A DNA stretch of 63,902 nucleotides, the filler included, from Collodictyon triciliatum (taxonomy: Eukaryota): assembly GCA_043381765.1 (NCBI GenBank). It is 9 parts of 9 records of this genome, joined end to end, with 100 filler letters (N's around TTAATTAATTAA, not from the genome) between each part and the next. Parts side by side here need not be neighbours in the genome. Positions count along the whole stretch, not along the records: positions 22,395 to 29,756 come from JBHJMP010003936.1; 8 more parts are not named here. One strand, given 5' to 3'. The notes below the pieces were generated by a model, which did not search any database, was not told where the DNA came from, and worked only from the letters and a program-made list of their open reading frames with translations. Position 1 is the first letter of the stretch. Every line of letters begins with the position of its first letter. The translations under genes were made by a program, and so were the position numbers. Shown in pieces: positions 7,367-56,037 of this stretch.

Positions 7367-7466
7367 NNNNNNNNNNNNNNNNNNNNNNNNNNNNNNNNNN
7401 NNNNNNNNNNTTAATTAATTAANNNNNNNNNNNNNNNNNNNNNNNNNNNNNNNNNNNNNNNNNNNN
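7367..7466. other. Artificial contig linker (N-run + TTAATTAATTAA + N-run), one of eight
   Basis: The same six-frame-stop 12-mer sits inside a ~100-nt N spacer at 7391, 14875, 22339, 29801, 37260, 44717, 52177 and 59633. The intervening contigs are all ~7.36 kb, consistent with size-sorted concatenation. Confidence 0.97.
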
Positions 7467-14731: not shown

Positions 14732-14931
14732 TGTGATTTGAAATCTGTCATAATTATTGAGCTTATCCCCTAGATTTTTTTATTATTTTTTTTTTTTTTG
14801 TAATTATCCTTGGTTTGGTTTGGTTTTTTTNNNNNNNNNNNNNNNNNNNNNNNNNNNNNNNNNNNNNNNNNNNNTTAATTAATTAANNNNNNNNNNNNNN
14901 NNNNNNNNNNNNNNNNNNNNNNNNNNNNNNT

Positions 14932-18406: not shown

Positions 18407-19263
18407 TTTTTTTTTTTTCTTCCTTTCAATTTTGTTCAGTATGGTGGAGATGTTGGCTTTGGTTCGCTAGCCATCGTTTGCATGGACGCTACTTGTTGGC
18501 CGGGTGGCGGAGAAATAGTCGGTAATCAGGAATTGCATCCTGCGGTTTGACCTGTAGCCTGGGTCTTGTGCTTGCATGAGAGATACAAGGCGAGGTTTAA
18601 TATCCTTCTCAGCTTCTTTCCACATGTCTCTTCTCACAGGGTCTGAGTAGTAGAGAACGTGCAGGTGGCAAAGAAGCTGTTGAGGAAAGGGATTTGTATG
18701 ATGTCATCCAGCCTGTTATCAGGAATGGGTGTTTGGTTGTTGAGTCTTGCTTTGCGTGAGACTGTGCGTGCTATCCACATAGTCCATAGCAAATGGCCTC
18801 GCTTCGCTGCCCAGAATGTTTTTGCGTCTGGACGCAGCTGCTGCAGAGGCCCAAATATCGCCTGGATTGGGCCAACAGCTGCAGCCGTCTTGAGTGCCAG
18901 TCGAAGAATCTCACCGGCTGTTTCGTGCAGGTTTTGAGCGAAGGGGCATTGCACAAATGTGTGCTCAATGGATTCATCACCGTTGCTGCAAAGTGTGCAT
19001 TGTTGGGAGACTTTGCCAGCTTTTGCCGCGCGTGTGCCTATCCATGGCTCCCTATTGGTGATATCAAGCATTAGAGAGCGGTGATTTAGAAGGACTTGCG
19101 GAGTTCGTGCTTGTCTCCAGCTCGCGGTGAGCGGGGTGTGTGATGCCCAGTGTTTCTCCCCACCGTTGATGTTTTGACTTTTTGTAGGGTGTCGGCGGCG
19201 ATATTTTGTATCAAAAGAATTTAGAGTAGGCCATAGCCATCTAGAGCTGCATAAGCTGCGCAC
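18407..19263 (-). mobile_element. 5'-truncated non-LTR retrotransposon (L1/Tx1-like) ORF2 3' end with zf-RVT zinc knuckle, frameshifted
   Basis: CTLCSNGDESIEHTFVQCPF and LWTMWIART motifs. After a frameshift near 18670 the frame continues ...MQAQDPGYRSNRRMQFLITDYFSATRPTSSVHANDG*, then a short UTR and an A-rich tail (T-run 18407-18418 on +). Confidence 0.8.
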
Positions 19264-19689
19264 CGTTAGACGAGCGTTCGTTCTTGAGGCGGAAAAAGAA
19301 TGGTGGCAGGGTGTCGTATGAGAATGGTCTGTGTGGGCAATATTTTTCGGAACTGAAACCTTGCAATATATGCAAATTTGTTGCTTTCATGCAATTTTCT
19401 TCATTTATTTGTGTTCTTTTGACTTTCAAATGAGTTTTAGATGCAACAGACCTAAGAAACACAAGTCATGATTGCGAAAACACAGCCCAAAAATAGTTAA
19501 AACACGATTTTGATTTTGCTTGTTTGAATGGTTTAACTGTGCTATCCAGTCATACATTTAAATCTAGGGACGGGTTTAATTTAAAATTGCCGGATTAATT
19601 TGATTATAAGTGAAAGAAACTTGAAGCCAAAGGATATTTAAAATGAGGAAATGCAAAACCCACTTAAATTGCGCACTTATTTGATAACT

Positions 19690-21488
19690 AGCTCAGTTGA
19701 CAGACTTTAACTGTATAAGAAATGGGTTCATATTAAAAAGAGCAGTATGTTTTAAAAATATGATTTTTTTCCTTTATTCGATACGTTTTAAAAATATGAT
19801 AATATCAGATCCATTTAGCTGAACAATAAACTGTTTTTTTATTTTTCCATCAAATTAAAGTACCTGATTCTCTGAAAAGTCTAGGGATTCAAGACACGTC
19901 ATTGTAAATATGCATAATGGAATATCGACCAACTATATACCATCAGTAAATGTCAAAAAAAAAAAACCTATAACTGAACCCTATTCAGGCCATATTAGAT
20001 GAAAGTAAACCATATTATTTGAAATGCACAGCTTTCTTAAGTCAGTGAGGACGCTAAAAGAATCCGGAATCAATGAAATCTACAGTTTCAATGTATTTTG
20101 ATTATGATTTTTTGAAGTGAAATTGAGAAAGACAAATATTCTAACCTTATTATGAGACAAGTCCATGGAGTGTATCCATTTCAATGAATGAATAAATTCT
20201 TCGCCTTGCATGAAAAGGTCTCCTCTATAAATGTAATCGAAAAGGTCTAAATCTGAATGACTAGCAGGGAAGCTTCCATAATATATGTTGAGATTCGTCA
20301 TTGATGCTATGCTTTTTGGGACTCTGATTTTAAAGTGATTATGAATTGTCTTAATTCGAATGTCTCTCAATTTGAATAATTTTGTAATATCCTGAGGTAG
20401 AAATTCAATCTGTTTCAGTTCGAAATGATGCGTTAATATATATATATATATATATATGTAAAAATTCATCAGCATTTTATTAAAAGTGAATATCCGAAAA
20501 AAATGCGCATTTTTTTTATTAACAAAGGAGTTAGCTTACTCACCCAGCCGTTGTGGACGTAAAATGTCTCCATATTTTTTAGTCTAGAAATTTCGTTTGG
20601 TATGCACGACATATTATTGGCAGATACATCGACTACCTTCACATTTTCTAATTCAAACAAACTAATTGGGTAGGATGTGAACTTGTTTTCTGATATGTCG
20701 ATATATGTAAGACCAATTAAATTCTTCATTCCTGGTGGGAGATCTGAAAGGCAATTTCTGTATGCGTATATTTCTTTCAAATTTTTCAGAAAATTTATCC
20801 CTGGTGTTAATTCTGATATTTTATTATTTGATATGTCAATGCGTTCAAGCCTATTAAGACTGGATATTTCACCCAAAACTGATGTAAGTCTATTCCCATG
20901 CATATGCAACTCCTTCACCATGGTCAGATTTGATAAAACAACTGGAAAAATACAAATATCGTTTTCTGAAATACATATGCTGCTCATATTTGTCAATTGT
21001 GACATTCCACTTGGTATTCGTGTGATTTTATTTCTATACATATCAAGAGTATTGATGTTGGTACATTTGGTAATACCTATCGGCAATTTAGATATTTTGT
21101 TGTATGACGCTCTTAAATCAAAAAGGTTTGTCAATGCTGATATTCCGGCTGGCAACGATATTAGTTCGTTATGTGATACGTTAAGAACTCTTAAATTACA
21201 CAACGCAGATAATTCATCAGGTAAAATTGATATGACGTTATGAAGCAACCATAATTTTTCAAGGTTTGTAAGCTTCGAAATATCTGGTTGTACAGATGCG
21301 ATTTGGTTTTGATGAACGCAAAGAGACTTTAATTCGGTCATTTCGAATATACAAATAGGAAAAATTGATATGGCTTTCCGCTGAACTTCCAGAGCAGTGC
21401 ACGATTCGATTCTATCGAAGAAGCTGTTGGGTTCATAATATGGTTTTAAGCTTATAAGCTCATATAAAGAAGATGATGTATTACCCAT
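19690..21488 (-). CDS. Intracellular leucine-rich repeat protein with predicted N-myristoylation motif
   Basis: Starts MGNTSS (MGxxxS). About 13 typical 23-aa LRRs lie in ORF 20469-21488, with further LRR exons near 20145-20412, 19990-20058 and 19864-19932. The 3' end is uncertain. Confidence 0.8.
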
Positions 21489-21686: not shown

Positions 21687-22393
21687 AATCAAGTGAAAAT
21701 ATACTGTGTCATACTGATGTCTACCAGATATTGATGGGGTTTTTTGCACTTATATTTTGTTGTTTTATTGAAGTGTTTTTCCACTAAATAAATCCATGAG
21801 AAGGTCGATAAAAACCAATTAGAAATTGTAATTCCATTTGAAAATTAATATTACGGAGCTAGTCATGTAAGACTTCTCAATCTCTTAAATTAATTCAAGA
21901 CTTTCGTGAGTGTAAACTTTCAACACTTTTTTTCATAAACTTATATGAAGCAGGAAATGACACATTAACATATAAATATCGAATTAATTTTGTTTTCACC
22001 AGCAAAACCTAAGTATTTTTTTTATAAATAGATGAGAAATCTTTATGAAGTCTTTGTTAAAATCCTTGTGTCCAGCATTAGATGACCAAAGTCGGAATGA
22101 GTCTTGCTCGTGTTATGTAGCAAAGGACTTCAAAAGTCGTTTAAACCGATCAAATTTCTCGATATTTTTTAAAAAAAAAATTAATTTTAATCTTTTATTC
22201 TTTTATTCTTTTATTCTTTTATTCTTTTATTCTTTTATTCTTTTATTCTTTTATTCTTTTATTCTTTTATTCTTTTATTCTTTTATTCTTTTATNNNNNN
22301 NNNNNNNNNNNNNNNNNNNNNNNNNNNNNNNNNNNNNNTTAATTAATTAANNNNNNNNNNNNNNNNNNNNNNNNNNNNNNNNNNNNNNNNNNN

Positions 22394-25300
22394 NGAGTGG
22401 AACTTTAATAAATGTATCTGTCATAAGTCTGCCAAGCAAAGTGGACTGGAGCCGATTCCTGTCGCCAAGTTGACCGAGGGCGAAATTAAGGATGGTGTCG
22501 AATCCTTCCTCATCCGCTATGACAAGACCCTGAACGAAAAGCAAGTTGGAATGATTCTGGCTGACTTTAAAGATACTGGTGAGGCATTTTTAATAAGAGT
22601 GTATATTTTGATAAAAAAATTTCCAAGGAATGATTAGTTATTCTTATGTGATATTTATTATAGGCCATCCACTTTATCTCCGCATCATTCTGGATGAAGT
22701 CAGGGTCTTTGGTGTCTATGAGAAGCTTGATGATGAACTGTTTGCGCTACTTGCGACCAACGGTGTCATTGACCTTTACACTCTCATTATCAAACGCTGG
22801 CAACTGAAGTTTGACAGGAAAGGTGAGTTTTGGTTTCATATTTCACAAAAAAAAAATGCAAATTATAATAGCAATTTTTGTTGATTGATACTTTTTCAGT
22901 GGCCTCAACTGATGGAAAAGAGACGATGAAGGTCGAGTATGTCTCCCTCTCGATGAAGGTTCTATTTGTTTCCCGCATCGGCCTGAGTGAAGGTGACCTG
23001 GACAAGTACATGAATGACGCGATTGGCGCAGGATTCGAGCTTGCTGAATGGTTTGCTTATTCTTGAATATTATATAATGAATAGGTTTACCCTTTCTCAT
23101 TTTCTTTTCTTTTCTTATTTATTTAATTTATTTAACTTATCTTTTATTCATTAAAATAGGAAATCCTTTTTCTTTACCCTCATCGAGTCGCTTTTCGTCC
23201 GCAATGGAAGGTTGGTGTTATTTCTCAGTCTTTTTCTTTCGTTAATCTGTGTTTTTGGTTTTATTTGATTTGGATATAAAGCTAACTATTGTTTATAATA
23301 GATACATGTACTTCCACCAGCTGCTGTTGGAGACCACCGAAAAGGTTTATTTCTCCGAAGGGAAAGAGATGGAAAAAACCCACGAAAAATACGGAAAATG
23401 GCTGTTTGGCCAGTATTCTGAGGCTTCTGACGCAGATGAGGAGCTTGCTGCTGAAATATGCTACCAGCTTCTGAAGGGCAGTTCGTTTGACTTGCTTGTG
23501 GAATACATGAAGCAAAAACATGTAATTTCTTTATTTTTTATTCGAGTATTTACTGTCATAATGAAACGGCATTCACTGATTAATTATTTTAAATATTTCA
23601 TAGGTTATCAGCATCATGCTTGGTGGTCGCTATCGCTACGAATTCTTTACATGCTGGAGAGCAATCAACGCAAGTGGAGCGGCGAACTACAAAGAAGCCT
23701 ATGGAAGTTTGGCTTTAGTAATTTGTTGCTTAATTTTAATTTTTTGAAGGTTACTACTCACAATTTTAATTATCAATCATGATTTATCTATTAATTATTA
23801 TTGTTTTTCAGTCTTTGGATAAAGTGGGAGACCTGCTTGTTGGATTTTTCTTGGAGTCTTTTGAGAACTCGTTCTTGTTATCTGTTCTGAATGTGCGTCT
23901 TGGAAAGCATCAGACAGAAGGTATGCGATTCGTTATTTTTTTTGATGAATTTATGTCATGAATATGAGTGTATATATATGGAGACATTCAATAATCTATC
24001 ATTCATAGATGCGAAGGCTGCTGATTACCTGAATCTTGGTCGTGTCTACAAGAACCTCCAAAAGTAAAAAATAATAATAAAAAAACAATGATTATGATGA
24101 TTAATTAATACATGACATGATGTTTATAATGCAACTTTTCTAAAATAAAAATTGAAAAGCTGGGCGGAGTCCATGGTCTACTACAAGAAATGTCTCGACG
24201 CCGTTGAGAAAAATGCAGATGATTCCCTGCGCATTGCTACCATCCATGAAGAGATGGGTATCATCTATCAGCAACAGGACAAGTAAGGCTCGCTTTCAAC
24301 TGTAAAATAAATTATGAATAATGTTTCAAAAAGGAATTATTCTGATTTTTATTATGAAACAGAATCGATGAAGCTCTTGATGAATACAAGAAATCACTGG
24401 AATTGAGAATCAAACAACTGGGTGAGAACGACTTGCAAGTGGCCCAATCACATGACCGCTTTGGAGATATCTACGTGAAGCAGTCAAAGTAATATTTAAA
24501 TCATTTATATTCGTTAATATTCTACTCTTTTCTTTAAATATATATGTATGCTGATCAATTTTTTATGATAGGAATGTGCAGGCTCTGGTTGAATATGAAA
24601 AAGCCATGGAAATCCGCCAAAAGAAAGTCGGAAACGAGCATCCTCTTGTCGCAACATCGTACCAGAACTATGGCCATGTCTCTCTGGCTGGGAAAAAGTA
24701 GCACATATATATTCATTAAACACAGTTTTAAATTAATTATGATAATTTTAGATATATTAATATGATTGAATCATCAAGGTATGAAGAATCTATTGAAAAC
24801 TTCGAGAAGGCGAAATTAATCCTTGAAAAATCGCTGGGAGCTAAGCATGCATCTGTTGCCTCGACAATCCAGTTTATTGCAAACGTTCATCTTGCCAGTG
24901 GAAAGTTCGGATTTCTAAATTTTAGATTTTTTGTATACTACAATGATATTCTATACTTTCAATTTTTGCAAAACATATTTGGCTTCATTTCTTTCATTTG
25001 TATGGACTCTATTTGGGGTTAAAATTATGCATCATATAATGCTAACAAAATAAATATCAAAACTATCGTCTTATATAGGAAAACTGAGGCCTTATCGTCA
25101 TTGAAGCAATCGCTGGATATTTTCATGTCTGCCCTGGGTGAAAATCATCCGAATGTCGTGGCCTGTCATGAGATGATTGGAGACATCAGCCATGATTTGA
25201 AGGAGTATCTCTTTTTATAAATTATTTATATTTTTAAAAGAAAAGAATAACTTATTTACTCACATTTTCCTAGCTTTAAGGGTGCTTTGGAGGCGTATAC

Positions 25301-28300
25301 GAAGACGCTGGATATTCGCGTGAGAACACTGGGCGAAAATCATGCTGATTATGCGACTTCCCTGGAGAATGTTGGCCGAACAAACTTTGAGCTGAAAAGG
25401 TAATTTTCTCTTTCTATTATTTAAAAATTAAATATTTTATTAAAACCAGTAAAAGCATACATATATATTCACTAATATACATGTATTTAGATTGGACCAA
25501 GTTGTTGAATACTTCCAGAAGGCTGCTGCTATCAGAAAGGAGACAAATACTATCATGTCACTGAAAGATGGCCCACAAATTGACAACATTATCCGACTCA
25601 TGAAGGACAAGAAGGAGCATGAAGCCGTCATTCAGCTTTACAAAACAGCTGCTGTTAGACATGCTGAAAAGTCCTCCTATGAAAACTGGGACTGGTGGGT
25701 GGCTTGTGAGACTGCACACCAATACTGCAAGGATAACAAGCTACACGAAAGTGGCGTGGCATTCTGGGCTGAGATGAGAGACAGATTCGCTGTTAAACTC
25801 GGATGGATTCACCCCAGAACATTAAACTCATGCGAATACTTGTCCGTCCATTCAAAAGAAATTGGAATCAACAAAGAGCCTGTCGAGTTTACAAGAGTCA
25901 ATAGATTCATTTGTGAAACTCTTGATGATGCAAAGCTGGATGAGGAATGGAATCGTGAGCAAATCATCGCATCGTTATTCAGAATTGTCTGCATGTCAAA
26001 GACTGATGAGAGCAAATCAAATGCTGCATCTGATGCAATCACACTTTTGAATTTCATGAATGTTTCGTTCGGTGGAATGGATTTATCAAACATCAAAATT
26101 CCACATGCAAATCTCAGTAACTCAATCTTTGATGGTACAAATCTCACTGGTGCCAACTTAGATGGTGTTGACTTCACAAATTCGATGCTTGGTGATTGTG
26201 TTTTTGATAATGCGAATATGAATAATGTGAAATTCGGAATTCGTTATGATAAATTAGAAGGTCATACAGAAACTGTTAGAAGTGTTTGCAGTATTCAAGG
26301 ACCGAATGGTGAAAATTGGTTGGCTTCTGGAAGTGATGATAGCACAATACGTATTTGGGATGTAGCCACAGGAAACCAAATAAAAACATTAGAAGGTCAT
26401 ACATATGCTGTCTGCAGTATTTGCAATATTCAAGGACCGAAAGGTGAAAAGTGGTTGGCTTCTGGTAGCTATGATAAAACTATACGTGTTTGGGATGTAG
26501 CCACAGGAAACCAAATCAAAAGATTACGTGGTCATAGAGCTTATGTTAATTGTGTTTGCAGTATTCAAGGACCGAATGGTGAACATTGGCTGGCTTCAGG
26601 AAGTGATGATAAAACAATAATTATTTGGGATGTAGCCACAGGAAACCAAATCAAAACATTATATGGTCATACAGAATCTGTCATGAGTGTTTGCAGTATT
26701 CAAGGACCGGATGGTGAAATATGGTTGGCTTCTGGAAGTCTTGATAACACAATACGTATTTGGGATGTAACCACAGGAAACCAAATCAAAACATTAAAAG
26801 GTCATACAAGCGATGTCAATTGTGTTTGCACTATTCAAGGACCGAATGGTGAAACGTGGCTGGCTTCTGGAAGTTTTGATAGAACAATACGTATTTGGGA
26901 TGTAACGACAGGAAACCAAATCAAAACATTAGAAGGTCATACAAGGGAAGTCAGAAGTGTTTGCAGTATTCAAGGACCGAAAGGTGAAAATTGGCTGGCT
27001 TCTGGAAGTGTTGACAAAACAATACGTATTTGGGATGTAGCCACGGGAAACCAAATCAAAACATTGGAAGGACATACAGAACCTGTCGCTAGTGTTTGCA
27101 GTATTCAAGGACCGAATGGTGAAAATTGCCTGGCTTCTGGAAGCTATGATGAAACAATACGTATTTGGGATTTAGGCACAGGAAACGAAATCAAAACATC
27201 AGAGGGTCATATAGGTGGTGTATTGAGTGTTTGTAGTATTCAAGGACCGAATAGTGAAAATTGGTTGGCTTCTGGAAGTTGTGATAATACAATCGGTATT
27301 TGGGATGTAGTTACAGGAAACCATATCAGAACATTAGAAGGTCATACACATACTGTCACTAGTGTTTGCAGTATTCAAGGACCGAATGGTGAAAACTGGC
27401 TGGCTTCTGGAAGTGTTGATAAAACAATACGTATTTGGGATGTAGCCACAGGAAACCAAATCAAAACATTAGAAGGTCATACAAATAATGTCAATAGTGT
27501 TTGCAGTATTCAAGGACCGAATGGTGAAAGTTGGTTGGCTTCTGGAAGTTGGGATAAAACAATACGTATTTGGGATTTAGCCACAGGAAACCAAATCAAA
27601 ACATTAGAAGGGCATGGAGATGCTGTCGAGAGTGTTTGCAGCATTCAAGGACCGAATGGTGAAAAGTGGTTGGCTTCTGGGAGTGAGGATAAGACAATAC
27701 GTATTTGGGATATAGCCACAGGAAACCAAATCAAAACATTAGAAGGTCATACAAGTTTTGTCATGAGTGTTTGCAGTATTCAAGGACCGAATGGTGAAAA
27801 CTGGCTGGTTTCTGGAAGTGGCGATGAAACCATACGCATTTGGGATGTAGCCACAGGAAACCAAATCAAAAAATTAGAAGGTCATACAGATTGGGTCAAG
27901 AGTATTTGCAGCATTCAAGGACTGAATGGTGAAAAGTGGCTGGCTTCTGGAAGTGATGATAATACAATACGTATTTGGGATGTAGCCTCAGGACACCAAA
28001 TCAAAACATTAGAAGGTCATATAGGTTCTGTCACTAGTGTTTGCAGTGTTCAAGGACTTAATGGTGAAAATTGGCTGGCTTCTGGAAGCAAAGATAAAAC
28101 ATTACGTATCTGGGATGTAGCCACAGGAAACCGAATCAAAACATTAGAAGGGCATACAAATGATGTCAATAGTGTTTGCAGTATTCAAGGACCAAATGGT
28201 GAAAAGTGGTTGGCTTCTGGAAGTGATGATAAATCAATACGTATTTGGGATGTAGCCACAGGAAACCAAATCAAAACATTGGAAGGTCATACAAGTTGGG

Positions 28301-29436
28301 TCAATAGTGTTTGCAGTATTCAAGGACCGAACGGTGAAAATTGGTTGGCTTCTGGAAGTGGTGATGAAACAATACGTATTTGGGATGTAGCCACAGGAAA
28401 CCGAATCAAAACATTAGAAGGGCATACAAATGATGTCATGAGTGTTTGCAGTATTCAAGGACCGAACGGTGAAAATTGGCTGGCTTCTGGAAGTCGTGAT
28501 AACACTTTACGTATTTGGGATGTAGCCACAGGAAACCAAACACACAGTCTGCAAAAGTCAGAAGTGACCTACACCCAAGGAAAATATCTTGTCAAGAAAG
28601 AAAAGCCTGACGAAGTCATCGCAGTATTCAACAGAACAAGTGATGCGATGGACATGATTGATACCAACAGAATCCAAGATGCAAAGACAGTCCAGATTAT
28701 CGGCCCAAGAAAGCTGCAAGGTGGAAACATCCAAATCAGAAATGTCACGCGATTGAGTCAATTCAACAAATCCCTCCTACTTTCTATCGGTGCTGCTTCC
28801 TTCGATGCGGACTTTGCTGCCTATTGTGAGCAGGGTAAGTTCACCAAGTTCCAGGCTCAAATGATGGCTGAGTGCTGTGAGAATGCATGGGGTATTGAGA
28901 AAGACACTGAGAAAGCAGCTGAGTGGAGAATTATCGCTCCTTTGAAATCATCATTAGACTTTGATGGATTGAAGCAACTCGCACAACGAGGCTCAAAGGA
29001 TGCATTCAATGTTTTGAAAGAAATGGCTGAAATTAAGGAAAACATTCTTAGCAAATGGGCAAACGAGACATATGGAAGTAAAATTGGTGAAAAATACAAA
29101 TATCCACAGGCTGTTTCTATTGTTGCTGAATGCTATGAGAATGGATGGAGTGTTGAGAAGAACACCGTGAAAGCAGCTGAGTGGTTCGGAAAAGCTGAAA
29201 ACTTTGAAAAATTGAAGCAACTTGCTCAACAAGGCTCAAAGGTGGCATTCAATGTTTTGAAAGAAATGGCTAAAATGATGGAAGATATTCTGGAGTACGA
29301 GACATATGGAAGAAAAATTAGTGAACACAAATATCCACAGGCTATTCCTATTGTTGCTGAGTGCTATGAGAATGGATGGAGTGTTGAGAAGGACACCGTG
29401 AAAGCTGCTGGGTGGAGACAGAAAACCTCAGCTTAA
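22394..29436 (+). CDS. NLR/STAND-like multidomain protein: TEP1/NPHP3-type post-NTPase helical region, TPRs, pentapeptide repeats, 17 WD40, Sel1-like repeats (5'-truncated)
   Basis: GHPLYLRIILDEVRVFGVYEKL, VSRIGLSEGDL and YFHQLL resemble the helical/winged-helix tail that follows the NACHT domain in the TEP1/NPHP3 family. Next come 42-aa TPR exons (LGENHPNVVAC, LGAKHASVAST), spliced in frame (AG|A TTG GAC at 25491) to the long terminal exon (ORF track 25492-29436, 1314 aa). The P-loop itself is outside the contig. Confidence 0.8.
24160..25399 (+). repeat. Array of single-TPR exons, all with phase-2 boundaries
   Basis: Exons 24363-24488, 24572-24697, 24779-24904, 25079-25204 and 25274-25399 are each exactly 126 nt; 24160-24282 is 123 nt. 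Confidence 0.88.
26254..28540 (+). repeat. 17 tandem 135-bp (45-aa) WD40 repeats with high internal nucleotide conservation
   Basis: Unit LEGHxxxVxSVCSIQGPNGENWLASGSxDxTIRIWDVATGNQIKT. The DNA core cagtattcaaggaccgaatggtgaaa...tgggatgtagccacaggaaaccaaatcaaaacattagaaggtcat recurs every 135 bp. Confidence 0.97.
28864..29420 (+). repeat. Three Sel1-like repeats; the last ~240-bp unit is a recent tandem duplication
   Basis: AECCENAWGIEKDTEKAAEW, AECYENGWSVEKNTVKAAEW and AECYENGWSVEKDTVKAAGW. Near-identical DNA at ~28960-29190 and ~29200-29420. Confidence 0.8.
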
Positions 29437-30385
29437 CAAGGTAAGTAGTATAGTAAATGCGTATTAATGTATGTTCGTTAACTAGAATCATTTTAGATGG
29501 AGAGATTCTCTGCGTTTTTTTCAAGCAGACCTCCGCTTTTTTCCCACAAGGACACTCCATGAAAACAGAATAAAACCATAAAAATGAAAGCAAAGCTGAT
29601 CGATCTCTGTTGCAACCATTTTTTTCTTTTTTTTTCTTTTCTTTTTTCTTTTCTTTTTTCTTTTCTTTTTCCTTTTCTTTTTCCTTTTCTTTTTCCTTTT
29701 CTTTTTCCTTTTCTTTTTCCTTTTCTTTTTCCTTTTCTTTTTCCTTTTCTTTTTCCNNNNNNNNNNNNNNNNNNNNNNNNNNNNNNNNNNNNNNNNNNNN
29801 TTAATTAATTAANNNNNNNNNNNNNNNNNNNNNNNNNNNNNNNNNNNNNNNNNNNNTGAAAAAAAAACAAAAAAAAAAAAAAAAAAAAAACATACAACAG
29901 CCGGCAAACCAGCACAACTTCCTCAGCATAGGCATTAGCGGAACCGGCAAGAATATTGTAAAATTATTTTTGCAGACTCTGAAGAAATATACCTTTATTT
30001 TTTGAATCAGCAACTATAATATAAGTCAAAATTTTGGAAATATAAGTAATGAATTATCCATTCTAATAGTCGGAAGATATTCATCCGTTCAAGTCGACTC
30101 CTTGAATCTCAAAATCATACTTTAATCAACCAGATTCAGGTATGACACATATTTGGGAAAATCTCTACGTGTATATTTTATGACTAAATAAACGCTAGAT
30201 TCTGATAATTTGCTATCCTTGTTAATATTTACCTATACTTTTCATAAGGCATATATAATATTGAATGATGTATGAATTAAAAATAGTCAAGTTGGAAAAA
30301 TCAATCATAAGTTAATTTAACGTCATTAGAGGGAGTTTCATTGAAATAAAAAAAATCTATACGTAATTAATACAAAAATTTGACT

Positions 30386-30560
30386 ATTTTTTAATTCTTT
30401 CATTCCATTTTGTGCAGGGCGGTGGAGATGCTGGCTTTTGTTCGCTAGCCATCGTTTGCATGGACGCTACTTGGTTGCCGGGTGGCGGAGAAGTAGTCGG
30501 TAATCAGGAATTGCATCCTGCGGTTTAGCCTGTAGTCTGGATCTTGTGCTTGCATAAGGA
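30386..30560 (-). mobile_element. Severely 5'-truncated copy of the same LINE family (3' terminal ~170 bp)
   Basis: 30421-30556 aligns nearly base for base with 18443-18577 and encodes LMQAQDPDYRLNRRMQFLITDYFSATRQPSSVHANDG* plus an A-rich tail. Confidence 0.85.
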
Positions 30561-33500
30561 AGACCAGGACACAAATTTCAACTCTTTAAATATTTTGATT
30601 ATTTCTCAGGATGAATTTAAAAAACCGTTTATAATAGCACTTGATGAACTTTCAGAAAGGGCCCATCTGTCATTCCATTTCATCGTACAAGGAACTCTGG
30701 AGCTCTCATTTTTTGGTTATAAATAAGTTATACAGTAATTTGACCAAGCCAATTCATAGTATCGAAAGGAAATTTATTTATCTGAAGGTTTCAAGTACCA
30801 TTAATCTAATTTTTATAATAATAAAAGAAACACATAATTAAAACTTTGAGGTCATTACAAAGAATAGTGCAATCTTTGGGCCAGATTGGCCAAGAATCTG
30901 ATAGTAAAAAAAGTATGATTCTTGTCTAATTTTACCCTCTAATTCTTATCATAATTGAAAAACACGAAAAATTTTAAAATTTTATGACAGAATATTCGTC
31001 ACATGTTTGATATTCAACGATAGAAAAAGCAAATACGCACATTTTAAGTACACGTGTTTATAAAGCCTAATTTTTAGCAGATCATCAATCAAACTTCATT
31101 CTTCATTTAGGTCTCGTTTTGATAAATGAATTAATCTGATAACTTCATGGACTAGCTGAAGAATCGCATTATTTAATTCAATATATCATATTAAGCATTA
31201 ATCATTCATCTTGAATTAGAAACTGGTCGAACTAAAGTCATGGACAAAACTCAGATACAGTTGCAATTGGAAGGGACAATAGACAAAATCCGTGGGAAAG
31301 GGAACTATTTCGATCTACTACTTGGAGGAGGGGGGAGGGGTGGTGGATCGGCGGCTCCTAGTCTTCCCGATGGTCTGAAGTAAAGGTCTAAGAACGTACG
31401 GCGGGGGTGTTGGGTTGTGTTGTGTGTGGAAGTAAGTATGTCTTGGTCTAGTCATTCATGACCAAAAAAAATAAAAAATCATATTCGTTGTAAATTTCTC
31501 TAATCAAGAGTCATTTATCCTTTTTTCGGTAAGGAGGATTAATCTTATTTGAAAACATTACCTATTCAACATATAAAATACAGCATGCATAAAGTCGAAT
31601 AGTTTATAATTAAAAATATTTCATTAGTAAAACTATACTAATGATAGAACAAAATTCAATAAAATTAAGAATTATCATCGAAGTCTGGCCATGCTAGTTA
31701 TTTCATTATTTAGTTGATAGATTTAATCCTAACATAAAATACATGGAATCAATATTGTAATACTTACAATAAATACAATAATATCAGCTATATGTTTTCT
31801 AATGAAGTTTAATCAAGATGAATGGCCTGCTTACAGAATCGTCATGCCACGTCATTTATTTTTCGATAATCGTATCACGTATTGCCTTGTGAATACTAAA
31901 TCTACAAATAATCTTTAAATTACGTATCTACTAGAAAGTGTTTGTTATCTGCAGATTCTTGGTATCTGTATTTTAAATTCCGTTTTAATTAAATCAATAG
32001 ATACGCTTTTGCATCAAATGTGAAATTTAAAAAACAACTAACCGACATAAAAACCATTATATTATCCAAATCGAAAAACACATACCATATCTCCGCTAAA
32101 AACCAGTTTGCCGCTGAATGATACACCACCCCTCTCCTTGACTGACCTGCAATGATTTGTCCACAGCTTCACACCCATACCCTTCACCTAAATAGACCTT
32201 GTTCGTTTCTCCAAGTGAAATGATTTGTTAGTTTACCGCTCAATAAAGAAACCTATTTGATAATTAATCGTTGTTGAATCATCTAAATTAGTTCAATTTT
32301 CTCCCTTTAAGATTTAGATGTCGATTTATCAAATCCAACAAACCCACCCTCCTCCTTCCAATTCCAAACCAATCAGAGGTAATGAAAAGGTATTTGTGAT
32401 ATGTATTATTATTATGTCCCCCCGACTAACCGAGGATATGGTAGACGGTTCACGCCCTTTTGTTGTTTTACGACTACCATCGTTCAAATATAATAAAAAA
32501 CCCTTTTTATGCATACAATTTATATTTTCGTATATTTATGTTGATTTCTTAATGATTTATTTATTTAATCCACCACATACAGTATGACTTCTATGATTGT
32601 TTCATACCAATGATTCTATCATTTTATCAAATCCTTGATATTGTTCGGTTTATTCCTATTCGGTCAAAATATGGCCGAGTACAAGTATTAATGCATACAC
32701 AATTTTATTGATAATCTATATTATTCATTTTTTTTATCAAATATTCAAAAACAAGAATTCAATTTGTCTGCATTGATAGAAATGTAAACCAATTGAATAG
32801 CTAAACTTTCAGTTCTAAAATATCTCTTGAAATGATTGTGCTTGTAAATTGAATACTATCAATACCTTTTATTATTATTTTTGTATCATAATTAGTTTTA
32901 GCTTTTTATAAACACTGATTTTATCTTGGGTTCCAAAGGAACTTAAAAATCACATGGCTTAGAGCTCAATGAAATATAAGATTGACATAAAACATATCGC
33001 TATTAGTAGTCAAAAGAATATAGTCAAATTTTTATCGATATAAGTTATGAAAGTTTTGGTTCTGATTTAATGAATAATATGAATATGGAAACTGACATAC
33101 GATTGGATTTTTAAGATAGTTGGTTGATTTGAATCCAAATTGAGAGCCTTTTTATAGGTAATGAAATAATCACGATGAAAAAGATACATGAAAATCTATA
33201 GTGAAACTGATCGCTAATCACTGAACCTCTTAGAGATGATACCCAGCTCTCAAAAAACATATTTTGGTGTTTCAATCAGTTGCTAATGTAAGTTTACCGA
33301 ATATTAGGATGTCACTCATCGCTTGGCCATTTCCATACACATATGGGCGTACTTCATGAGTAAGCATAGTTCTAAAACAATTAGTAATCCAGCTAACTGA
33401 AGGAAGATTTCATAAAAACTAAATTTTATACTTTTAAATCCAGAACAAATTTTTATCGGAAGCCATGTTCAAGGGCGATATCATTTTTCTCATATAATAA

Positions 33501-34570
33501 GTATTCGATATAGTCAAGCAAACAGGGTTTCTTTAATATATGATTCAATATAAATTATCTGATAATATGGCTGTTTTAACCTCTGGTTGTTTGATTAATT
33601 ACTGTGTAATTATATGGTAAACACTAAGAGGATTCAAATAAATGGTTATTACCCTAACATTTTTCATTATCATGATGAATAACAATTTATACGAATGCAA
33701 CAACCAAGAAAATTTTTTTTATAATTTGGAACTGACATTTATAATTTTAGGAATGACCAAAGTTCTAGCCGTCACAATGATTTTATGCAAATAGTTCCAT
33801 TCTCTCTTAATTATTTTAGTCATTAATCAAACCATATGAAGCACAAACTCATGATATTCTTATCTATCAAAATTTATTTGTATTTACAATCATACGTTTT
33901 AGCTTATCGGTGAATATCCAAAGATGATGAATAATAGATTATTTATCTGGTTTATATGATATTGAAAAATGAGAGAGGATTAACATACTGAATAATGATA
34001 TATGTGTGTACAAAAAGACAAGTGGTTTACGAATTTGAGGTTGATTTATTACAAGGAAAGTAAAAATAATATAAATAAGACAGTTCATATGAAAATTATA
34101 AAATCAAATAATGAATATAAATTTATACACTAAAAAATTCATTCATTTTTCCTAAGCAATATGTTTTTGTTGATTTATTTTTATAAATAATTCATTATTT
34201 TCATTATATCAACTTTATATCACATGAAAAATCAAAATATTTGATTTTTTTGACACAAAATTAAGCTTCGATTTGAGAATTGCTTTATTTAATAATGAAT
34301 ATTCTTGAAATCAAATTTACTGAATATACCTATGTTTGGTGAATAAAATATCAGCAGAAAAAACAATATTCAACTTATACTGAGAAATTAATTGCAATAG
34401 GATAGAAATGCACTCACCAGATGAAAAAAGAACTGATTTCCAACGCAATAATTTCTTCGAATCGATAAGGACATCTCCCAAAATTCCTGCAACGTGCGTT
34501 TCATAATTCAATCTGTGATAAATACATTTGATTAATTAGTCTTAATTTTAAATATATAACCAGAAATTCA

Positions 34571-37215
34571 ATGCTTTTGGTTGCGTTTGTTGCCATCGTT
34601 TTCATTGTTTCATCGGCATCCTCAATTCATCCACGTCAAAGGTATATTTTGATTTATGAATATTTATAAAATACACTTTCGACTCAAATAAGGAAAACAG
34701 ATGCCAGTATTCAAGAGATGAGTTGCTTTCCATGAATGTTGAAGATGCGTTCCAAATTCTGTTGAGCTTCTACGATGAGACATGTCCTTTGTTGAAAGAG
34801 AGTGAGGATAACTTTTCAGGGTTGATGAATGGTCGCAAAGATGGAGAATACTCGCTAGAAAATGGACGCGGTGCTGAATGGAATTACGGAAAAAAATTAT
34901 CATCTAGTAAGGTCGATTTCTACAAAGAAATTCATTCGGAAAAACAAAGTGGAAACAGAGAACGGGGGTTGGAGAATGAAGATAGTCGAAATGTGGCCGA
35001 TAGAAATACTGGGACCCAATACGAACTGCTTGTCCAACTTTACAATTCACTTGGCGGCGATATTTGGTTTTGGAACACTGGATGGAAGAATGAAACTATC
35101 CCGATTTGTAATTGGTATGGAATATCGTGTCATCAGAGCTGTTCAGATCAAGACTATAAGGTATTCCCAGTATGACAATAATATCTCTTTTGATTTCATT
35201 TTTAACATATTTTCCTTTATATTTGTAGAGCAACACATGTCCTATATTCAGAATCAGTATGTCTGGAAACAATCTTAATGGTGACATTGAAGCTGCCTCT
35301 ATAATTTTTGAGAAGTTTCAATTATTGGATTCTTTGGACATGAGCTACAACTTTATTTACGGAAATCTTCCAGACTTTAATCTCCCTAGTATTACGTATC
35401 TGAAACTCTATGTGAATCAAATTACAGGAACGATTCCAGACTTTCAAGGAATGCCGAATATTGAACATACTGATATTGATGGGAATGAATTGGAAGGAAC
35501 AATACCGGATTTTTCTGCAATACAGTCGCTGAATACATTGTTAATTGGTGGAAGTGAAAAAATTACAGGTACAAAGTAATTTCTATAAGGTTTATTCTGA
35601 ATTCTAATGATTTTTCCATTTCAGGAACTCTTCCAGACTTCTCAGTGTTGCCAAATGTTCAGTTTCTTGCAATTTATAGCTGCGAGGTTCATGGTATGTT
35701 TTTCGTTTACTTAAATATGATGGCATAGAAGTGCTAATTTTAATGCTACAGGAACGGTTCCGAACTTCAGTGGAATTCCAAATGTTTTAGAGATATATCT
35801 TCACAACAATCGATTAACTGGTAAGTTGTTGTTATTATTTCATATGTTATTGATAAAAAAAAAACTAACTTTATATTACAGGAACGGTTCCAAACTTCAG
35901 TGGAATTCCAAATGTTGAAATAATTTATCTTTACAGCAACCAATTGAATGGTAAGTTTCAATTATTATTTTCATGTATTATTGATAAAAAAAAAAAACTA
36001 ACTTTATATTACAGGAACAGTTCCAAACTTCAGTGGAATTCCAAATGTTGAAATAATTTATCTTGACAGCAACCAGTTGATTGGTATGTTTAATTATTAT
36101 TTCATGTGTTATTGATAAAAAAAACTAACTTTATATTACAGGAACAGTTCCAAACTTCAGTGGAATTCCAAATATTGAAAGAGTTTATCTTGGAAACAAT
36201 CAGTTGAATGGTAAATTTCAATTATTATTTTCATGTGTTATTGATAAAAAAAAACTAACTTTATATTACAGGAACGGTTCCAAACTTCAGTGGAATTCCA
36301 AGCGTTAGAAGAATTTACTTTGACAGAAACAGACTGAAGGGTGATTTCTACTTATTTTCGATTTCTATTCCTTTGATTTTCATATTTCCTGTAATATTAA
36401 TGAGTAATTTTAGGCACAATCCCAAACTTTTCAAATACGCGTAAACTGGAGATTTTTTCTGTCTATGATAATCAGTTGGAGGGAGTGGTTCCAGATTTCA
36501 AATATTGCAAAATAATCAAGGAAATAGCATTGTTCCGAAATAAGTTATCAGGCACATTACCGATGTTCAATATGAATAACCTGACAAGACTAGATGTGAG
36601 CGAAAACCAAATCACTGGCTCTATTTCCAATTACTGGAAATTACCATCAATTAAATACATCGACTTGTCTTGGAACAAAATGAACGGCACAGTCCCAACC
36701 TATTTCCAGGGACTGTCAGAACTGAAATCACTCGTTTTATCTCACAACAAATTCTCTGGAAGTATGCCTAATTTATTCTGGAATCTGCCGAATCTAGTCA
36801 CGATTGACTTAAGAAATAACTCATTTTCAGGAGACATTGGTGTTTTCATCTCACCAGCTTCAGGCAATTACGGTTATTTTTATGAAAACATTTTGCTTGA
36901 TGATAATAGACTGAATGGGGAATTGAATTGGTGGATATTTGACTTTGTTCTTAACATAAAAACATTAAGTCTTAAGAACAACAACATCACCAAGCTTGAT
37001 GAGCTTACAAATCTTTTGAGATGGACTTCCCTTGACCTCACTGGAAATCCGATTGTTGAAAGCATTCCTGAATCATACGTTAGGTTTTCAAAGCTTGAGT
37101 ATCTGGGATTAAATAAAACATCGATGAATCACGGAACAGCTAATTTTCTTCCTGGTTTTATGAATTTTACGACATCTTTCAATCTACAAGATGAAACAAA
37201 ACGCTACCTTTGTCC
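34571..37215 (+). CDS. Secreted/surface LRR receptor (signal peptide, LRR N-cap, GxIP/GxVP-type LRRs), 3'-truncated
   Basis: Signal-like MLLVAFVAIVFIVSSASS; cap LVQLYNSLGGDIWFWNTGWKNETIPICNWYGISC; LRRs of the NxLxGxVPxF type. The last exon is clearly paralogous to ORF 42496-43839. Confidence 0.88.
35752..36340 (+). repeat. Tandem exon+intron repeat: five 69-nt LRR exons separated by four near-identical ~60-nt phase-1 introns
   Basis: Exons 35752-35820, 35882-35950, 36015-36083, 36142-36210 and 36272-36340. The introns share ttattattttcatrtrttattgataaaaaaaa(a)ctaactttatattacag. Confidence 0.95.
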
Positions 37216-37315
37216 NNNNNNNNNNNNNNNNNNNNNNNNNNNNNNNNNNNNNNNNNNNNTTAATTAATTAANNNNNNNNNNNNNNNNNNNNNNNNNNNNN
37301 NNNNNNNNNNNNNNN

Positions 37316-44334: not shown

Positions 44335-44772
44335 CTAATGTAGAAATATATATTGACCATTGCTGGACGAAAGGATAAAAAAATAAAAATAAAATACAGT
44401 AACATGAAGAGAATCAAAAAAAAATTTTTAAAACATATAAGGACCCTTCCTTCCCTTGAATCGAACAAAGGGGGAAAATTAAAATATATAAGGACAATAG
44501 GACAAAATGCTAAATATATATAATATAAAAAAATACAATCCCCTCCCCCTCCCCACCAGTTCTCATTCCCATTCGATTCGATTCGATTCGATTCGAAGAA
44601 AAGAAAAGAAAAGAAAAGAAAAGAAAAGAAAAGAAAAGAAAAGAAAAGAGAAGAGAAGAAAAGGAAAAGAAANNNNNNNNNNNNNNNNNNNNNNNNNNNN
44701 NNNNNNNNNNNNNNNNTTAATTAATTAANNNNNNNNNNNNNNNNNNNNNNNNNNNNNNNNNNNNNNNNNNNN

Positions 44773-44804: not shown

Positions 44805-45090
44805 AAAAGAAAAAGAAAAAGAAGAAAAAGAAAAAGAAAAAAGGAAGAAAAAAAAGAAAAAAAAAGAAAAAAGAAAAAAGAAAAAAGAAAAAAAGAAAAA
44901 AGAAAAAAAGAAAAAAGAAAAAAAGAAAAAAGAAAAAAGAAAAAAGAAAAAAAGAAAAGAAAGAAAAAAGGGGACCCAAGAATAGACGCAAGCCAAACAT
45001 GAACCCAACACAATTGCATTCTAATCGTTTCCCTACTGTGACACAGACATCTCGCTGTCCCACACGCCGTTCAAGCCTGATCCACAGGCG

Positions 45091-51624
<6,534 letters not shown>

Positions 51625-55965: not shown

Positions 55966-56037
55966 GGCTTAATAGTCTAGTGGTATGATTCTCGCTTTGG
56001 GTGCGAGAGGTCCCGGGTTCAATTCCCGGTTGAGCCC
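55966..56037 (+). tRNA. tRNA-Pro(UGG)
   Basis: GGCTTAA/TTGAGCC acceptor stem, CTCGC-TTTGGGT-GCGAG anticodon arm, GGTTCAATTCC B box, T5 terminator ~8 nt downstream. Confidence 0.96.

What the first reader, a model, noticed from the sequence alone, without database searches (positions are those of the whole stretch)
26254..28540. HET-E-like WD40 array: homogenised scaffold with hypervariable surface codons
Seen: 17 repeats are near-identical even at synonymous sites, yet two short windows differ in almost every repeat, often by whole-codon changes. After GH: TETVRS, TYAVCS, RAYVNC, TESVMS, TSDVNC, TREVRS, TEPVAS, IGGVLS, THTVTS, TNNVNS, GDAVES, TSFVMS, TDWVKS, IGSVTS, TNDVNS, TSWVNS, TNDVMS. 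After SGS: DDS, YDK, DDK, LDN, FDR, VDK, YDE, CDN, VDK, WDK, EDK, GDE, DDN, KDK, DDK, GDE, RDN. Repeats 15 and 17 share the private tract ccgaatcaaaacattagaagggcatacaaatgatgtc, a sign of unequal crossover or conversion. Established: these are the propeller top-face positions that diversify under concerted evolution in Podospora HET-D/HET-E (HNWD) NLRs. Inference: a fast-evolving non-self receptor in a lineage that does not look fungal.
Basis: partly seen in the sequence, partly recalled or inferred. Interest (0 to 1): 0.78.

Follow-up and report, generated by a model that had tools for sequence, protein, structure and literature searches.

The report
Homogenised WD40 sensor array, variable surface
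A protist-like gene for a large signalling ATPase carries 17 nearly uniform WD40 repeats that differ mainly at five ligand-facing residues per repeat, the pattern known from fungal self/non-self receptors, so it is a new example of a known evolutionary trick rather than a new kind of system.

Summary
There are 17 gap-free 135-bp (45-aa) WD40 units at 26254-28548. Scaffold codons are 91% identical between units; six variable codons are 49% identical. At unit codons 6, 7, 9, 28 and 30, dN/dS is 2.45 (bootstrap 1.65-3.65) and dN is 5.7 times the scaffold dS. These codons lie in the d-a loop, the start of strand a and the b-c turn of an AlphaFold model. They match five of the seven high-dN/dS positions of Podospora HET-E.

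The array is the intronless last exon of a 15-exon gene cut off at a contig end. The window is a chain of ~7.4-kb contigs joined by linkers. A collinear 2,619-aa homologue shows the full architecture: CH, DUF4062 (TIR-like), NACHT-type NTPase, TPR, pentapeptide, WD40, Sel1. That homologue's repeats are only 43% identical to each other.

So this is an NWD/NPHP3-type STAND protein with a HET-E-like sensor regime, not a member of the HET-E family. Three things remain untested: an immune or allorecognition role, variation between isolates, and whether the assembly is correct. The shared tract in units 15 and 17 is not significant on its own.

The parts
22295..22394 (.). Artificial linker (44 N, TTAATTAATTAA, 44 N). 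It marks the start of the contig that carries the gene.
   Evidence: the same linker occurs 8 times, about 7,460 bases apart, mostly next to microsatellites. DNA outside 22395-29756 is therefore not a true neighbour of the gene.
22395..23920 (+). Seven exons: 22395-22578, 22664-22822, 22900-23050, 23160-23210, 23302-23521, 23604-23717, 23812-23920. They encode the C-terminal edge of the NTPase domain and the helical region after it. The reading frame is open at the contig edge, so the 5' end of the gene is missing.
   Evidence: Manual GT-AG model. tblastn of homologue P0185 finds each exon, 44-71% identity, matching P0185 residues 800-1103. No Pfam match to single exons. P0185's NACHT and nSTAND1 matches end at residues 817 and 845.
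24009..25399 (+). TPR region in seven exons: 24009-24063, 24160-24282, 24363-24488, 24572-24697, 24779-24904, 25079-25204, 25274-25399. The last five are 126 bp each, one TPR per exon, and all are split after the second base of a codon.
   Evidence: TPR_12 matches per exon, E 1.2e-6 to 9.5e-3, all below the curated cut-off for single exons. The homologues reach TPR_12 E 3.5e-40 and 4.5e-40. Intron boundaries.
25491..29436 (+). Last exon, 3,946 bp, no intron, stop TAA at 29434-29436. It holds linker, pentapeptide repeats, WD40 array, C-terminal linker and Sel1-like repeats.
   Evidence: Open frame of 1,314 codons. Collinear with P0185 to its C-terminus.
25492..26049 (+). Family-specific linker domain, about 186 aa, no Pfam match.
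   Evidence: An exhaustive phmmer search of 1.84 billion representatives found 7 proteins at E <= 1e-3 and 4 at E <= 1e-10.
26050..26235 (+). Pentapeptide repeats directly before the propellers.
   Evidence: Pfam Pentapeptide E 8.9e-11; Pentapeptide_4 at residues 187-248 of window:25492-26253. All 63 hits carry pentapeptide domains.
26254..28548 (+). 17 WD40 units of 135 bp (45 aa). Within each unit, counted from the leading L of LEGH, the hypervariable codons are 6, 7, 9, 28 and 30, and codon 21 is moderately variable. Unit k starts at 26254 + 135(k-1).
   Evidence: Pfam WD40 E 3.9e-167 with 17 stretches. H4, D29, W35, S25 and S27 are invariant in 17 of 17 units.
28111..28168 (+). 58-base stretch across the unit 14/15 boundary, identical to 28381-28438 across the unit 16/17 boundary.
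   Evidence: This is the longest identical run between any two units, but it does not exceed column shuffles (p = 0.25).
28549..29433 (+). C-terminal region with Sel1-like repeats. Pfam matches one at about 29122-29196. Two further look-alike copies near 28866-28930 and 29362-29420 were judged by eye.
   Evidence: Pfam Sel1 E 3.5e-12, one stretch. The other two copies were read from the translation.
29757..29856 (.). Artificial linker marking the end of the contig. It is preceded by a (TTTTTCCTTTTC)n microsatellite at 29620-29756.

Best explanation
The array is the ligand-sensing beta-propeller region of a very large STAND (NLR-like) NTPase of the NWD1/NWD2/NPHP3/TEP1 type. The full protein, judged from a collinear homologue, has these parts in order: CH domain, DUF4062 (a TIR-like domain), NACHT-type NTPase, helical region, TPR, pentapeptide repeats, about 17 WD40 blades, and Sel1 repeats. 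In this gene the 17 blades trace back to one or a few units much more recently than in relatives. Recombination between units (unequal crossing-over or gene conversion in an intronless exon) keeps the scaffold uniform. Selection keeps or drives apart five residues per blade, which point out of the d-a loop, the start of strand a and the b-c turn. The result is tandem propellers with a fixed, stable frame and about 85 individually varied contact residues.

Shown: the repeat pattern, the excess of amino-acid-changing differences, the secondary-structure location, and the homology to a STAND family.

Inferred: that ligand binding on the propellers releases the NTPase to oligomerise and switch on the N-terminal effector, as in Apaf-1 and as proposed for TEP1; that the ligand is non-self or otherwise fast-changing; and that alleles differ in repeat number and order.
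For: Repeat pattern.
- 17 units, no indels.
- Scaffold identity 0.910 against 0.487 at six codons.

Selection.
- dN/dS is 2.45 at the five hypervariable codons (95% bootstrap 1.65-3.65).
- dN at those codons is 5.74 times the scaffold dS (3.58-10.63).
- Scaffold dN/dS is 0.36.

Recent common origin of the units.
- Scaffold pS is 0.17.
- Family members with the same 45-aa unit have internal amino-acid identity of 0.43, 0.44 and 0.37, against 0.77 here.
- All 17 units resemble the same few P0185 units, with no positional signal.

Mosaicism. 21 of 55 pairs of informative two-state scaffold sites show all four combinations.

Structure.
- AlphaFold model: mean pLDDT 77.2, pTM 0.51.
- Positions 6 and 7 are coil in 16 of 17 units. 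Position 9 is strand in 17 of 17. Positions 28 and 30 are coil in 15 and 16 of 17.
- By the rule in PMC3419727 (passages read), positions 7, 9 and 28 are the R1-2, R1 and D-1 top-face hotspots.
- Foldseek best match is 2ymu_A, 'highly repetitive propeller' (E 7.8e-35). Apaf-1 entries and the 8-blade designer Tako8 also match (target TM 0.81).

Family.
- My spliced model aligns to P0185 at 46.7% identity over 1,834 columns: model 16-1752 against P0185 800-2616.
- The P0185 N-terminus has CH 6.1e-11, DUF4062 7.8e-11 and NACHT 1.5e-5.
- DUF4062 is reported as a TIR-like NADase that sits beside NACHT in NWD1, NWD2, TEP1 and NPHP3 (bioRxiv 10.64898/2026.05.01.722283, abstract and passages read).
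Against: - The NTPase and the effector domains are not in the window. They are inferred from one full-length homologue of unknown origin.
- That homologue's NACHT, nSTAND1 and NPHP3_N matches all fall just below Pfam's curated cut-offs: 25.3 against 26.7, 24.5 against 27.1, 23.0 against 24.8 bits.
- Amino-acid identity between units (0.77) is below the 85% used for fungal 'high internal conservation' (PMC4986451, passages read).
- Synonymous divergence of about 0.2 means homogenisation is not very recent.
- The dN/dS at hypervariable codons rests on about 3 synonymous sites, and those codons were chosen because they vary.
- Codon 30 alone has pN = pS.
- The longest shared tract is not significant.
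- No close paralogue was seen among the 120 best-scoring proteins listed in each of two searches, out of 7,953 and 7,877 hits. There is therefore no evidence of an expanded receptor family or a shared repeat pool.
- There is no data from other isolates.
Confidence: 0.7

Rival explanations
1. A young repeat array with no recognition role. A housekeeping or cytoskeletal scaffold protein recently re-amplified one WD40 unit. The surface positions vary simply because they are the least constrained sites of any WD40 blade.
For: - Hu et al. (PMC5587647, passages read) describe 305 'highly repetitive' WD40 proteins (internal identity >= 0.7). They read them as young duplications whose hotspot sites are diverse.
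- The homologue has a CH (actin-binding type) domain.
- NPHP3 and NWD1 relatives in animals are not classical immune receptors (recalled).
- No paralogue family was seen.
Against: - Mere lack of constraint predicts dN about equal to dS. Observed dN at the five codons is 5.7 times the scaffold dS and 2.45 times their own dS, and no bootstrap replicate of 500 fell at or below 1.
- Scaffold dN/dS is 0.36 and the 765-codon frame is intact, so the protein is under selection.
Confidence: 0.15
2. Old blade-specific contact residues kept by purifying selection. Each blade binds a fixed part of a conserved partner. Short-tract gene conversion homogenises only the scaffold, and selection rejects conversions that overwrite the contact codons. 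The array would then be diverse between blades but slow-evolving.
For: - Synonymous differences are also higher inside the hypervariable codons (pS 0.34 against 0.17), as expected if those codons are older than their flanks.
- The homologue P0185 has a similar number of units: 18 found by my motif, and about 19 by spacing.
Against: - Hypervariable residues show no positional match to P0185 or P0186 blades. Matches on the collinear diagonal are no more frequent than off it (matrices read by eye, no formal test).
- The hypervariable codons lie only 54-60 bases apart within each unit, so conversion tracts would have to be very short.
Confidence: 0.1
3. Assembly artefact. The order and number of units, or the array as a whole, is a chimera or collapse of reads from one or several similar loci.
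For: - The gene lies on a 7.36-kb contig that breaks in microsatellites at both ends.
- PMC12222747 (passages read) shows that short-read assemblies of such WD40 arrays in Podospora are unreliable.
Against: - All 17 units are distinct, 5-21 differences each from the consensus.
- No two units share more than 58 identical bases in a row.
- The frame is intact across 2,295 bases.
- The repeat count is close to that of an independent homologue.
- Even a scrambled order would leave the per-codon pattern standing.
Confidence: 0.05

Closest known systems
Podospora anserina HNWD genes (het-e, het-d, het-r): HET-NACHT-WD40 NLRs with highly conserved repeats
   Same: - A STAND NTPase with a C-terminal WD40 sensor made of very similar tandem units.
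- Variation is concentrated after GH, after the next V, and around the D of SGSxDxT. Five of the seven HNWD high-dN/dS positions are the five hypervariable positions here (register).
- Signs of shuffling between units.
- More units than one propeller holds.
   Different: - The unit is 45 aa (135 bp), not 42 aa (126 bp). The three extra residues lie in the a-b loop.
- Unit identity is 77% aa and 85% nt, against 80-100% reported for HNWD.
- The N-terminus of the homologue is CH plus DUF4062, not HET.
- TPR, pentapeptide and Sel1 modules are added.
- HNWD positions 10 and 39 are only mildly variable here (4 and 3 residue types).
- There is no evidence of allelic repeat-number variation or of exchange between paralogues.
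Highly repetitive (HR) WD40 proteins of Hu et al. 2017, including the Nostoc protein solved as PDB 2YMU (organism recalled)
   Same: - Internal identity of at least 0.7 (0.77 here).
- Every blade keeps the Asp-His-Ser-Trp residues.
- Diversity sits at predicted hotspot sites.
- 2ymu_A is the best structural match.
   Different: - Most HR WD40 proteins are bacterial or fungal (50% and 36% of 305). This one lies in an intron-bearing eukaryotic gene of another family.
- Their identity measure may not equal mine.
Animal DUF4062-NACHT STAND ATPases: NWD1, NWD2, NPHP3, TEP1
   Same: - By homology the protein has DUF4062 next to a NACHT-type NTPase, followed by helical, TPR (as in NPHP3) and WD40 (as in NWD1/2 and TEP1) regions.
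- Pfam's NPHP3_N and TPR_NPHP3 models give weak matches to the homologues.
   Different: - TPR and WD40 occur in one protein, with pentapeptide and Sel1 repeats and an N-terminal CH domain.
- The repeats are homogenised. I know of no report of that for the animal proteins (recalled, not searched).
Ciliate, Mortierella and Mycoavidus NB-ARC/NACHT proteins with pentapeptide repeats before the WD40 array (for example P0076, Paramecium tetraurelia)
   Same: The pentapeptide stretch lies directly before a long WD40 array in a STAND protein.
   Different: - 42-aa units with internal identity 0.51 in P0076.
- Only 41% identity to the window's array.
- No match to the family-specific linker.
Ectocarpus NB-ARC-TPR candidate receptors with one repeat per exon (PMC3341825)
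   Same: Each TPR is a separate 126-bp exon with matching intron phases, a layout that permits exon shuffling.
   Different: - For that paper only the search listing and the start of the abstract were seen.
- Here the TPR exons are not alike at DNA level (no tandem-repeat hit).
- The variable module here is the intronless WD40 exon.

Membership tests
HNWD (Podospora HET-E/HET-D/HET-R) | N-terminal HET (TIR-related) effector domain | tested here: not met
   The N-terminus is absent from the window. The collinear homologue P0185 has CH and DUF4062, with no HET match among the 6 Pfam families at E <= 0.01. DUF4062 is itself reported as TIR-like, so the role may be analogous.
HNWD (Podospora HET-E/HET-D/HET-R) | NACHT nucleotide-binding domain | tested here: inconclusive
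   Only the last part of the domain lies in the window. P0185 matches NACHT at E 1.5e-5, 25.3 bits, under the 26.7-bit cut-off. A GxxxxGKS motif is visible in P0185 by eye.
HNWD (Podospora HET-E/HET-D/HET-R) | 42-aa (126-bp) WD40 units with 80-100% identity within a gene | tested here: not met
   Units are 45 aa (135 bp). Mean identity is 0.77 aa (0.60-0.91) and 0.853 nt.
HNWD (Podospora HET-E/HET-D/HET-R) | Diversifying selection at repeat positions 10, 11, 12, 14, 30, 32, 39 | tested here: met
   The equivalents of 11, 12, 14, 30 and 32 are the five hypervariable codons, with pooled dN/dS 2.45. The equivalents of 10 and 39 are only mildly variable.
HNWD (Podospora HET-E/HET-D/HET-R) | Repeat-number polymorphism between strains and repeat exchange between paralogues | not testable with these tools
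   There is one sequence only. No paralogue was found among the listed hits. The organism's genome was not available.
Highly repetitive WD40 (Hu et al. 2017) | Internal sequence identity of at least 0.7 | tested here: met
   0.768 mean pairwise amino-acid identity of the 17 units. My measure is a plain pairwise identity, and theirs may differ.
Highly repetitive WD40 (Hu et al. 2017) | High density of Asp-His-Ser/Thr-Trp tetrads, with diversity at hotspot sites | tested here: met
   H4, S25, D29 and W35 are invariant in 17 of 17 units. Positions 7, 9 and 28 (R1-2, R1, D-1) carry 11, 9 and 11 residue types. The hydrogen bonds themselves were not checked.
STAND / NLR-like NTPase of the DUF4062-NACHT (NWD/NPHP3/TEP1) type | P-loop NTPase of the NACHT clade with DUF4062 next to it | tested here: inconclusive
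   Not encoded in the window. Present in homologue P0185, which is collinear with the window's gene over 1,834 columns at 46.7% identity. DUF4062 is above its cut-off (42.5 against 24.7 bits). NACHT is just below its cut-off.
STAND / NLR-like NTPase of the DUF4062-NACHT (NWD/NPHP3/TEP1) type | C-terminal superstructure-forming repeats (TPR and/or WD40) as sensor | tested here: met
   TPR_12 matches on six exons, and WD40 E 3.9e-167 with 17 stretches.
WD40 beta-propeller | Four-stranded blades; d-a and b-c loops on the top face | tested here: met
   The model shows four strands per unit in all 17 units. Foldseek matches propellers at E down to 7.8e-35. Which face the loops lie on follows from WD40 topology, not from measured coordinates.

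The most novel reading that the evidence does not exclude
A non-fungal, amoeba-like eukaryote has independently put the sensor of a TIR-like/NACHT STAND protein into the same 'shuffle the scaffold, diversify the contact residues' regime as fungal heterokaryon-incompatibility NLRs. It would use this for allorecognition or pathogen sensing. That would make repeat-shuffling NLR sensors a recurrent solution in organisms whose cells or networks fuse. It would also give the DUF4062-NACHT clade (NWD1/NWD2/NPHP3/TEP1), whose signals are unknown, a member with a readable ligand surface.
Probability: 0.2. Interest if true: 0.7.

Novelty: new member of a known kind. Interest (0 to 1): 0.45.

Why it matters
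Highly conserved repeats with hypervariable contact residues are the best sequence-only marker of rapidly adapting NLR sensors. They are documented mainly in fungi and bacteria. Finding the regime in a different STAND clade has two consequences.

- **Reach of the regime.** The clade includes human NWD1, NWD2, NPHP3 and TEP1, and the gene comes from a poorly studied eukaryote. This would widen the known reach of the mechanism.
- **A testable case.** The gene gives about 85 defined surface residues, with relatives in the same family that lack homogenisation to serve as a control.

It also carries a practical warning. Such arrays sit on short contigs and need long reads before anyone trusts their repeat order.

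Tried and rejected
**Searches that did not find the family**
- The word-index search with the linker found only pentapeptide-repeat proteins: 63 of 710 candidates, at most 54% of the query covered. The family appeared only in the exhaustive search.
- Two word-index searches with the WD40 region looked for close paralogues or a named source organism. The near-length search gave 7,953 hits and the shorter-length search 7,877, with 120 listed each. Best identities were 51% and 55%, so none was found. Only the best-scoring 120 were visible, so closer but shorter relatives cannot be excluded.
- Pfam on the single upstream exons gave nothing for the first five.

**Tools and papers not available**
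- The Reticulomyxa genome paper is not held.

**Tests that were negative or weak**
- A GENECONV-like test of the longest shared run gave an observed 33 polymorphic sites against a shuffle mean of 29.6 (p = 0.25).
- Identity between units does not depend on their distance: 0.909-0.914 at lags 1-8. There is no sign of recent local duplications.
- No positional correspondence with the units of P0185 or P0186.

**Lineage**
- I suspected a foraminiferan such as Reticulomyxa filosa (recalled). The only check was a table in PMC13746701 (passages read): assembly N50 of 3.6 kb and mean intron of 87 bp. Here the contigs are about 7.4 kb and the 14 introns have mean 93 and median 86.5 bp. This is compatible and no more.
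- The searches 'Reticulomyxa filosa + WD40', 'Rhizaria/NACHT/WD40/NLR' and 'foraminifera + NACHT' returned nothing on such receptors, judging by the listed titles and abstract openings.

**Not used**
- The genome-contig scan (bacteria and archaea only) was not used.
- Complex prediction was not used because no partner is known.

Full report
**1. What the window is.** The 63,902-base window is not one stretch of chromosome.
- Eight identical linkers (44 N, TTAATTAATTAA, 44 N) lie about 7,460 bases apart, mostly flanked by microsatellites.
- The window is therefore a chain of separate contigs of nearly equal length.
- The feature lies on a contig spanning 22395-29756. Genes outside those bounds are not its neighbours, and gene context cannot be used.

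**2. The observation.**
- Tandem Repeats Finder gives one array: period 135, 16.9 copies, no indels, score 3165.
- From 26254 there are 17 in-frame 45-aa units.
- 111 of 209 departures from the consensus lie in 18 of 135 columns, where 27.9 would be expected (p = 2e-42).
- Pairwise nucleotide identity is 0.910 in the scaffold and 0.487 in six codons.
- Only one of six frames is open, and no other copy of the unit exists in the window.
- The wording 'near-identical even at synonymous sites' overstates the case. Scaffold pS is 0.17 and fourfold sites differ at 0.18.

**3. Selection.** I used Nei-Gojobori counts over all 136 unit pairs.
- Codons 6, 7, 9, 28 and 30 have pN 0.58 and pS 0.34. The other codons (21 set aside) have pN 0.067 and pS 0.171.
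- After Jukes-Cantor correction, dN/dS is 2.45 at the five codons (bootstrap over units, 95% interval 1.65-3.65).
- dN at those codons is 5.74 times the scaffold dS (3.58-10.63). Scaffold dN/dS is 0.36.
- Caveats: the five codons were picked because they vary. They hold only about three synonymous sites. Codon 30 alone has pN = pS, and codon 21 has pN < pS. Pairs of repeats are not independent. No tree-based or recombination-aware test was run.

**4. Concerted evolution.**
- Low synonymous divergence between units cannot be old. Family members with the same 45-aa unit have internal amino-acid identity of 0.43 (P0185, 16 units), 0.44 (P0186, 6) and 0.37 (P0184, 7), against 0.77 here.
- All 17 units are most like the same few P0185 units. 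Neither whole units nor hypervariable residues show a positional match.
- The array was therefore rebuilt or homogenised after the lineages split.
- Identity does not fall with distance between units.
- Of 69 scaffold minor variants, 48 occur in a single unit.
- 21 of 55 pairs of informative scaffold sites show all four combinations. This points to recombination between units or to recurrent mutation.

**5. Structure.**
- I built an AlphaFold2 model of 26203-28639 with 25 homologues as the alignment. It has mean pLDDT 77.2 and pTM 0.51, with four strands per unit throughout.
- Positions 6 and 7 fall in the loop between strand d and strand a. Position 9 is the second residue of strand a. Positions 28 and 30 are in the turn between strands b and c. 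Position 21 opens strand b.
- In WD40 propellers the d-a and b-c connections form the top face (established knowledge).
- The primary-sequence rule of PMC3419727 names positions 7, 9 and 28 as the R1-2, R1 and D-1 hotspots.
- I could not read coordinates, so exposure was not measured.
- Foldseek's best match is 2ymu_A, 'a highly repetitive propeller structure'. Apaf-1 and the 8-blade designer Tako8 follow (target TM 0.81 over 339 columns), which suggests at least one 8-bladed ring.

**6. The gene.**
- A manual model has 15 exons and 14 GT-AG introns of 69-174 bases.
- The last exon (25491-29436) holds a linker, pentapeptide repeats (E 8.9e-11), the array and Sel1 (E 3.5e-12).
- Upstream lie TPR exons and a helical region. 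The frame is open at the contig edge.
- An exhaustive search with the linker found 7 proteins in 1.84 billion.
- The spliced model aligns collinearly with P0185 (2,619 aa) at 46.7% identity over 1,834 columns, starting at P0185 residue 800. This validates the model and shows that about 800 residues are missing.
- Those residues in P0185 carry CH (6.1e-11), DUF4062 (7.8e-11) and a P-loop NTPase. The NTPase matches NACHT, nSTAND1 and NPHP3_N just under their cut-offs.
- None of this is encoded elsewhere in the window.

**7. How it most likely works.**
- A 2026 preprint reports DUF4062 as a TIR-like NADase placed beside NACHT in NWD1, NWD2, TEP1 and NPHP3. It proposes that their WD40 domains sense a signal that lets the NTPase oligomerise and activate the TIR-like domain.
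- By homology the window's gene is a member of that clade with extra TPR, pentapeptide and Sel1 modules.
- Its propellers would be the sensor. The uniform frame with intact Asp-His-Ser-Trp residues in all 17 blades gives stability. Five varied residues per blade form the ligand surface.
- The regime matches Podospora HNWD genes. There, repeats of 80-100% identity are thought to evolve by unequal crossing-over, with diversifying selection on surface positions.
- Using the het-e repeat printed in PMC12222747, HNWD positions 11, 12, 14, 30 and 32 are exactly the five positions here.
- A role in non-self recognition is an inference from this analogy only.

**8. Membership and novelty.**
- It works like a HET-E sensor but is not in that family. 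The unit is 45 aa, identity is below the fungal 85% criterion, and no HET domain is present in the homologue.
- It does meet the 'highly repetitive WD40' definition of Hu et al. Their set already includes proteins outside bacteria and fungi and notes diverse hotspot sites.
- I therefore rate it a new member of a known kind.
- The lineage is a eukaryote with short introns and about 36% G+C around the gene. It could not be named.

**9. Limits.**
- There is one sequence from a short contig, and short-read assemblies of such arrays are known to be unreliable.

Noticed in passing
window 7367-7466, 14831-14930, 22295-22394, 29757-29856, 37216-37315, 44673-44772, 52133-52232, 59589-59688: Identical linkers (44 N, TTAATTAATTAA, 44 N) about 7,460 bases apart. 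The window is a chain of separate, similar-sized contigs, most of which break in microsatellites. Four further N runs (251, 2, 483 and 145 bases) are ordinary gaps.
   Followed up: yes
window 24160-25399: Each TPR of the same gene is its own exon. Five exons are exactly 126 bp and one is 123 bp. Every intron falls after the second base of a codon, a layout that would allow repeats to be added or lost by exon shuffling. In contrast the 17 WD40 units share one intronless exon.
   Followed up: partly
window 35747-36301 (contig 29857-37215): A 130-bp tandem repeat (4.3 copies, 88% matches). Each unit seems to hold one leucine-rich-repeat exon plus its short intron. It lies inside an LRR gene whose last large exon is 36404-37215 (LRR_8 E 2.5e-20).
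   Followed up: partly
window 20469-21488 (-), 42496-43869 (-), 45025-46395 (+): Three further long open frames made of leucine-rich repeats, on three different contigs (LRR_4 5e-33, LRR_8 8.2e-12, LRR_8 1.3e-39). LRR proteins look abundant in this genome.
   Followed up: partly
window 46532-49042 (+): An 836-codon open frame with polycystin domain and PKD-channel matches (8.7e-19, 1.5e-17). It is a polycystin-type cation channel without introns.
   Followed up: partly
window 18634-19386 (-) and 59689-60351 (+): Retroelement remnants. One is a 250-codon frame with the zinc-binding region of reverse transcriptases (zf-RVT 3.4e-7). The other is an open frame at a contig start that looked like a retrotransposon by eye but matched no Pfam family.
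   Followed up: partly
window 55966-56037 (+) and 57567-57639 (-): Two tRNA genes (Rfam 59.7 and 65 bits). They are the only Rfam matches in the window.
   Followed up: no
window 38046-39953 (+): A 635-codon open frame in a stretch of 52% G+C, far above the window's usual 30-40%. It is rich in Ser, Pro, Gly and His and matches no Pfam family.
   Followed up: partly
window 4050-5333 (-) and 49449-50276 (+): Open frames matching the RSN1_7TM calcium-dependent channel region (2.3e-10) and a SPRY domain (1.8e-13).
   Followed up: no
proteins P0064, P0069, P0081: Proteins of unnamed origin that combine a P-loop NTPase with very uniform WD40 arrays (internal identity 0.61-0.77). In P0069 and P0081 the array is followed by what looked by eye like Sel1- and TPR-like repeats, the same order as in the window's gene. 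P0064 has 44-45-aa units and a trypsin-like N-terminus.
   Followed up: partly
protein P0187: A 77-aa fragment 66% identical to the window's linker region. It is the closest relative found, and may be a paralogue or a close species' orthologue cut off at a contig end.
   Followed up: no
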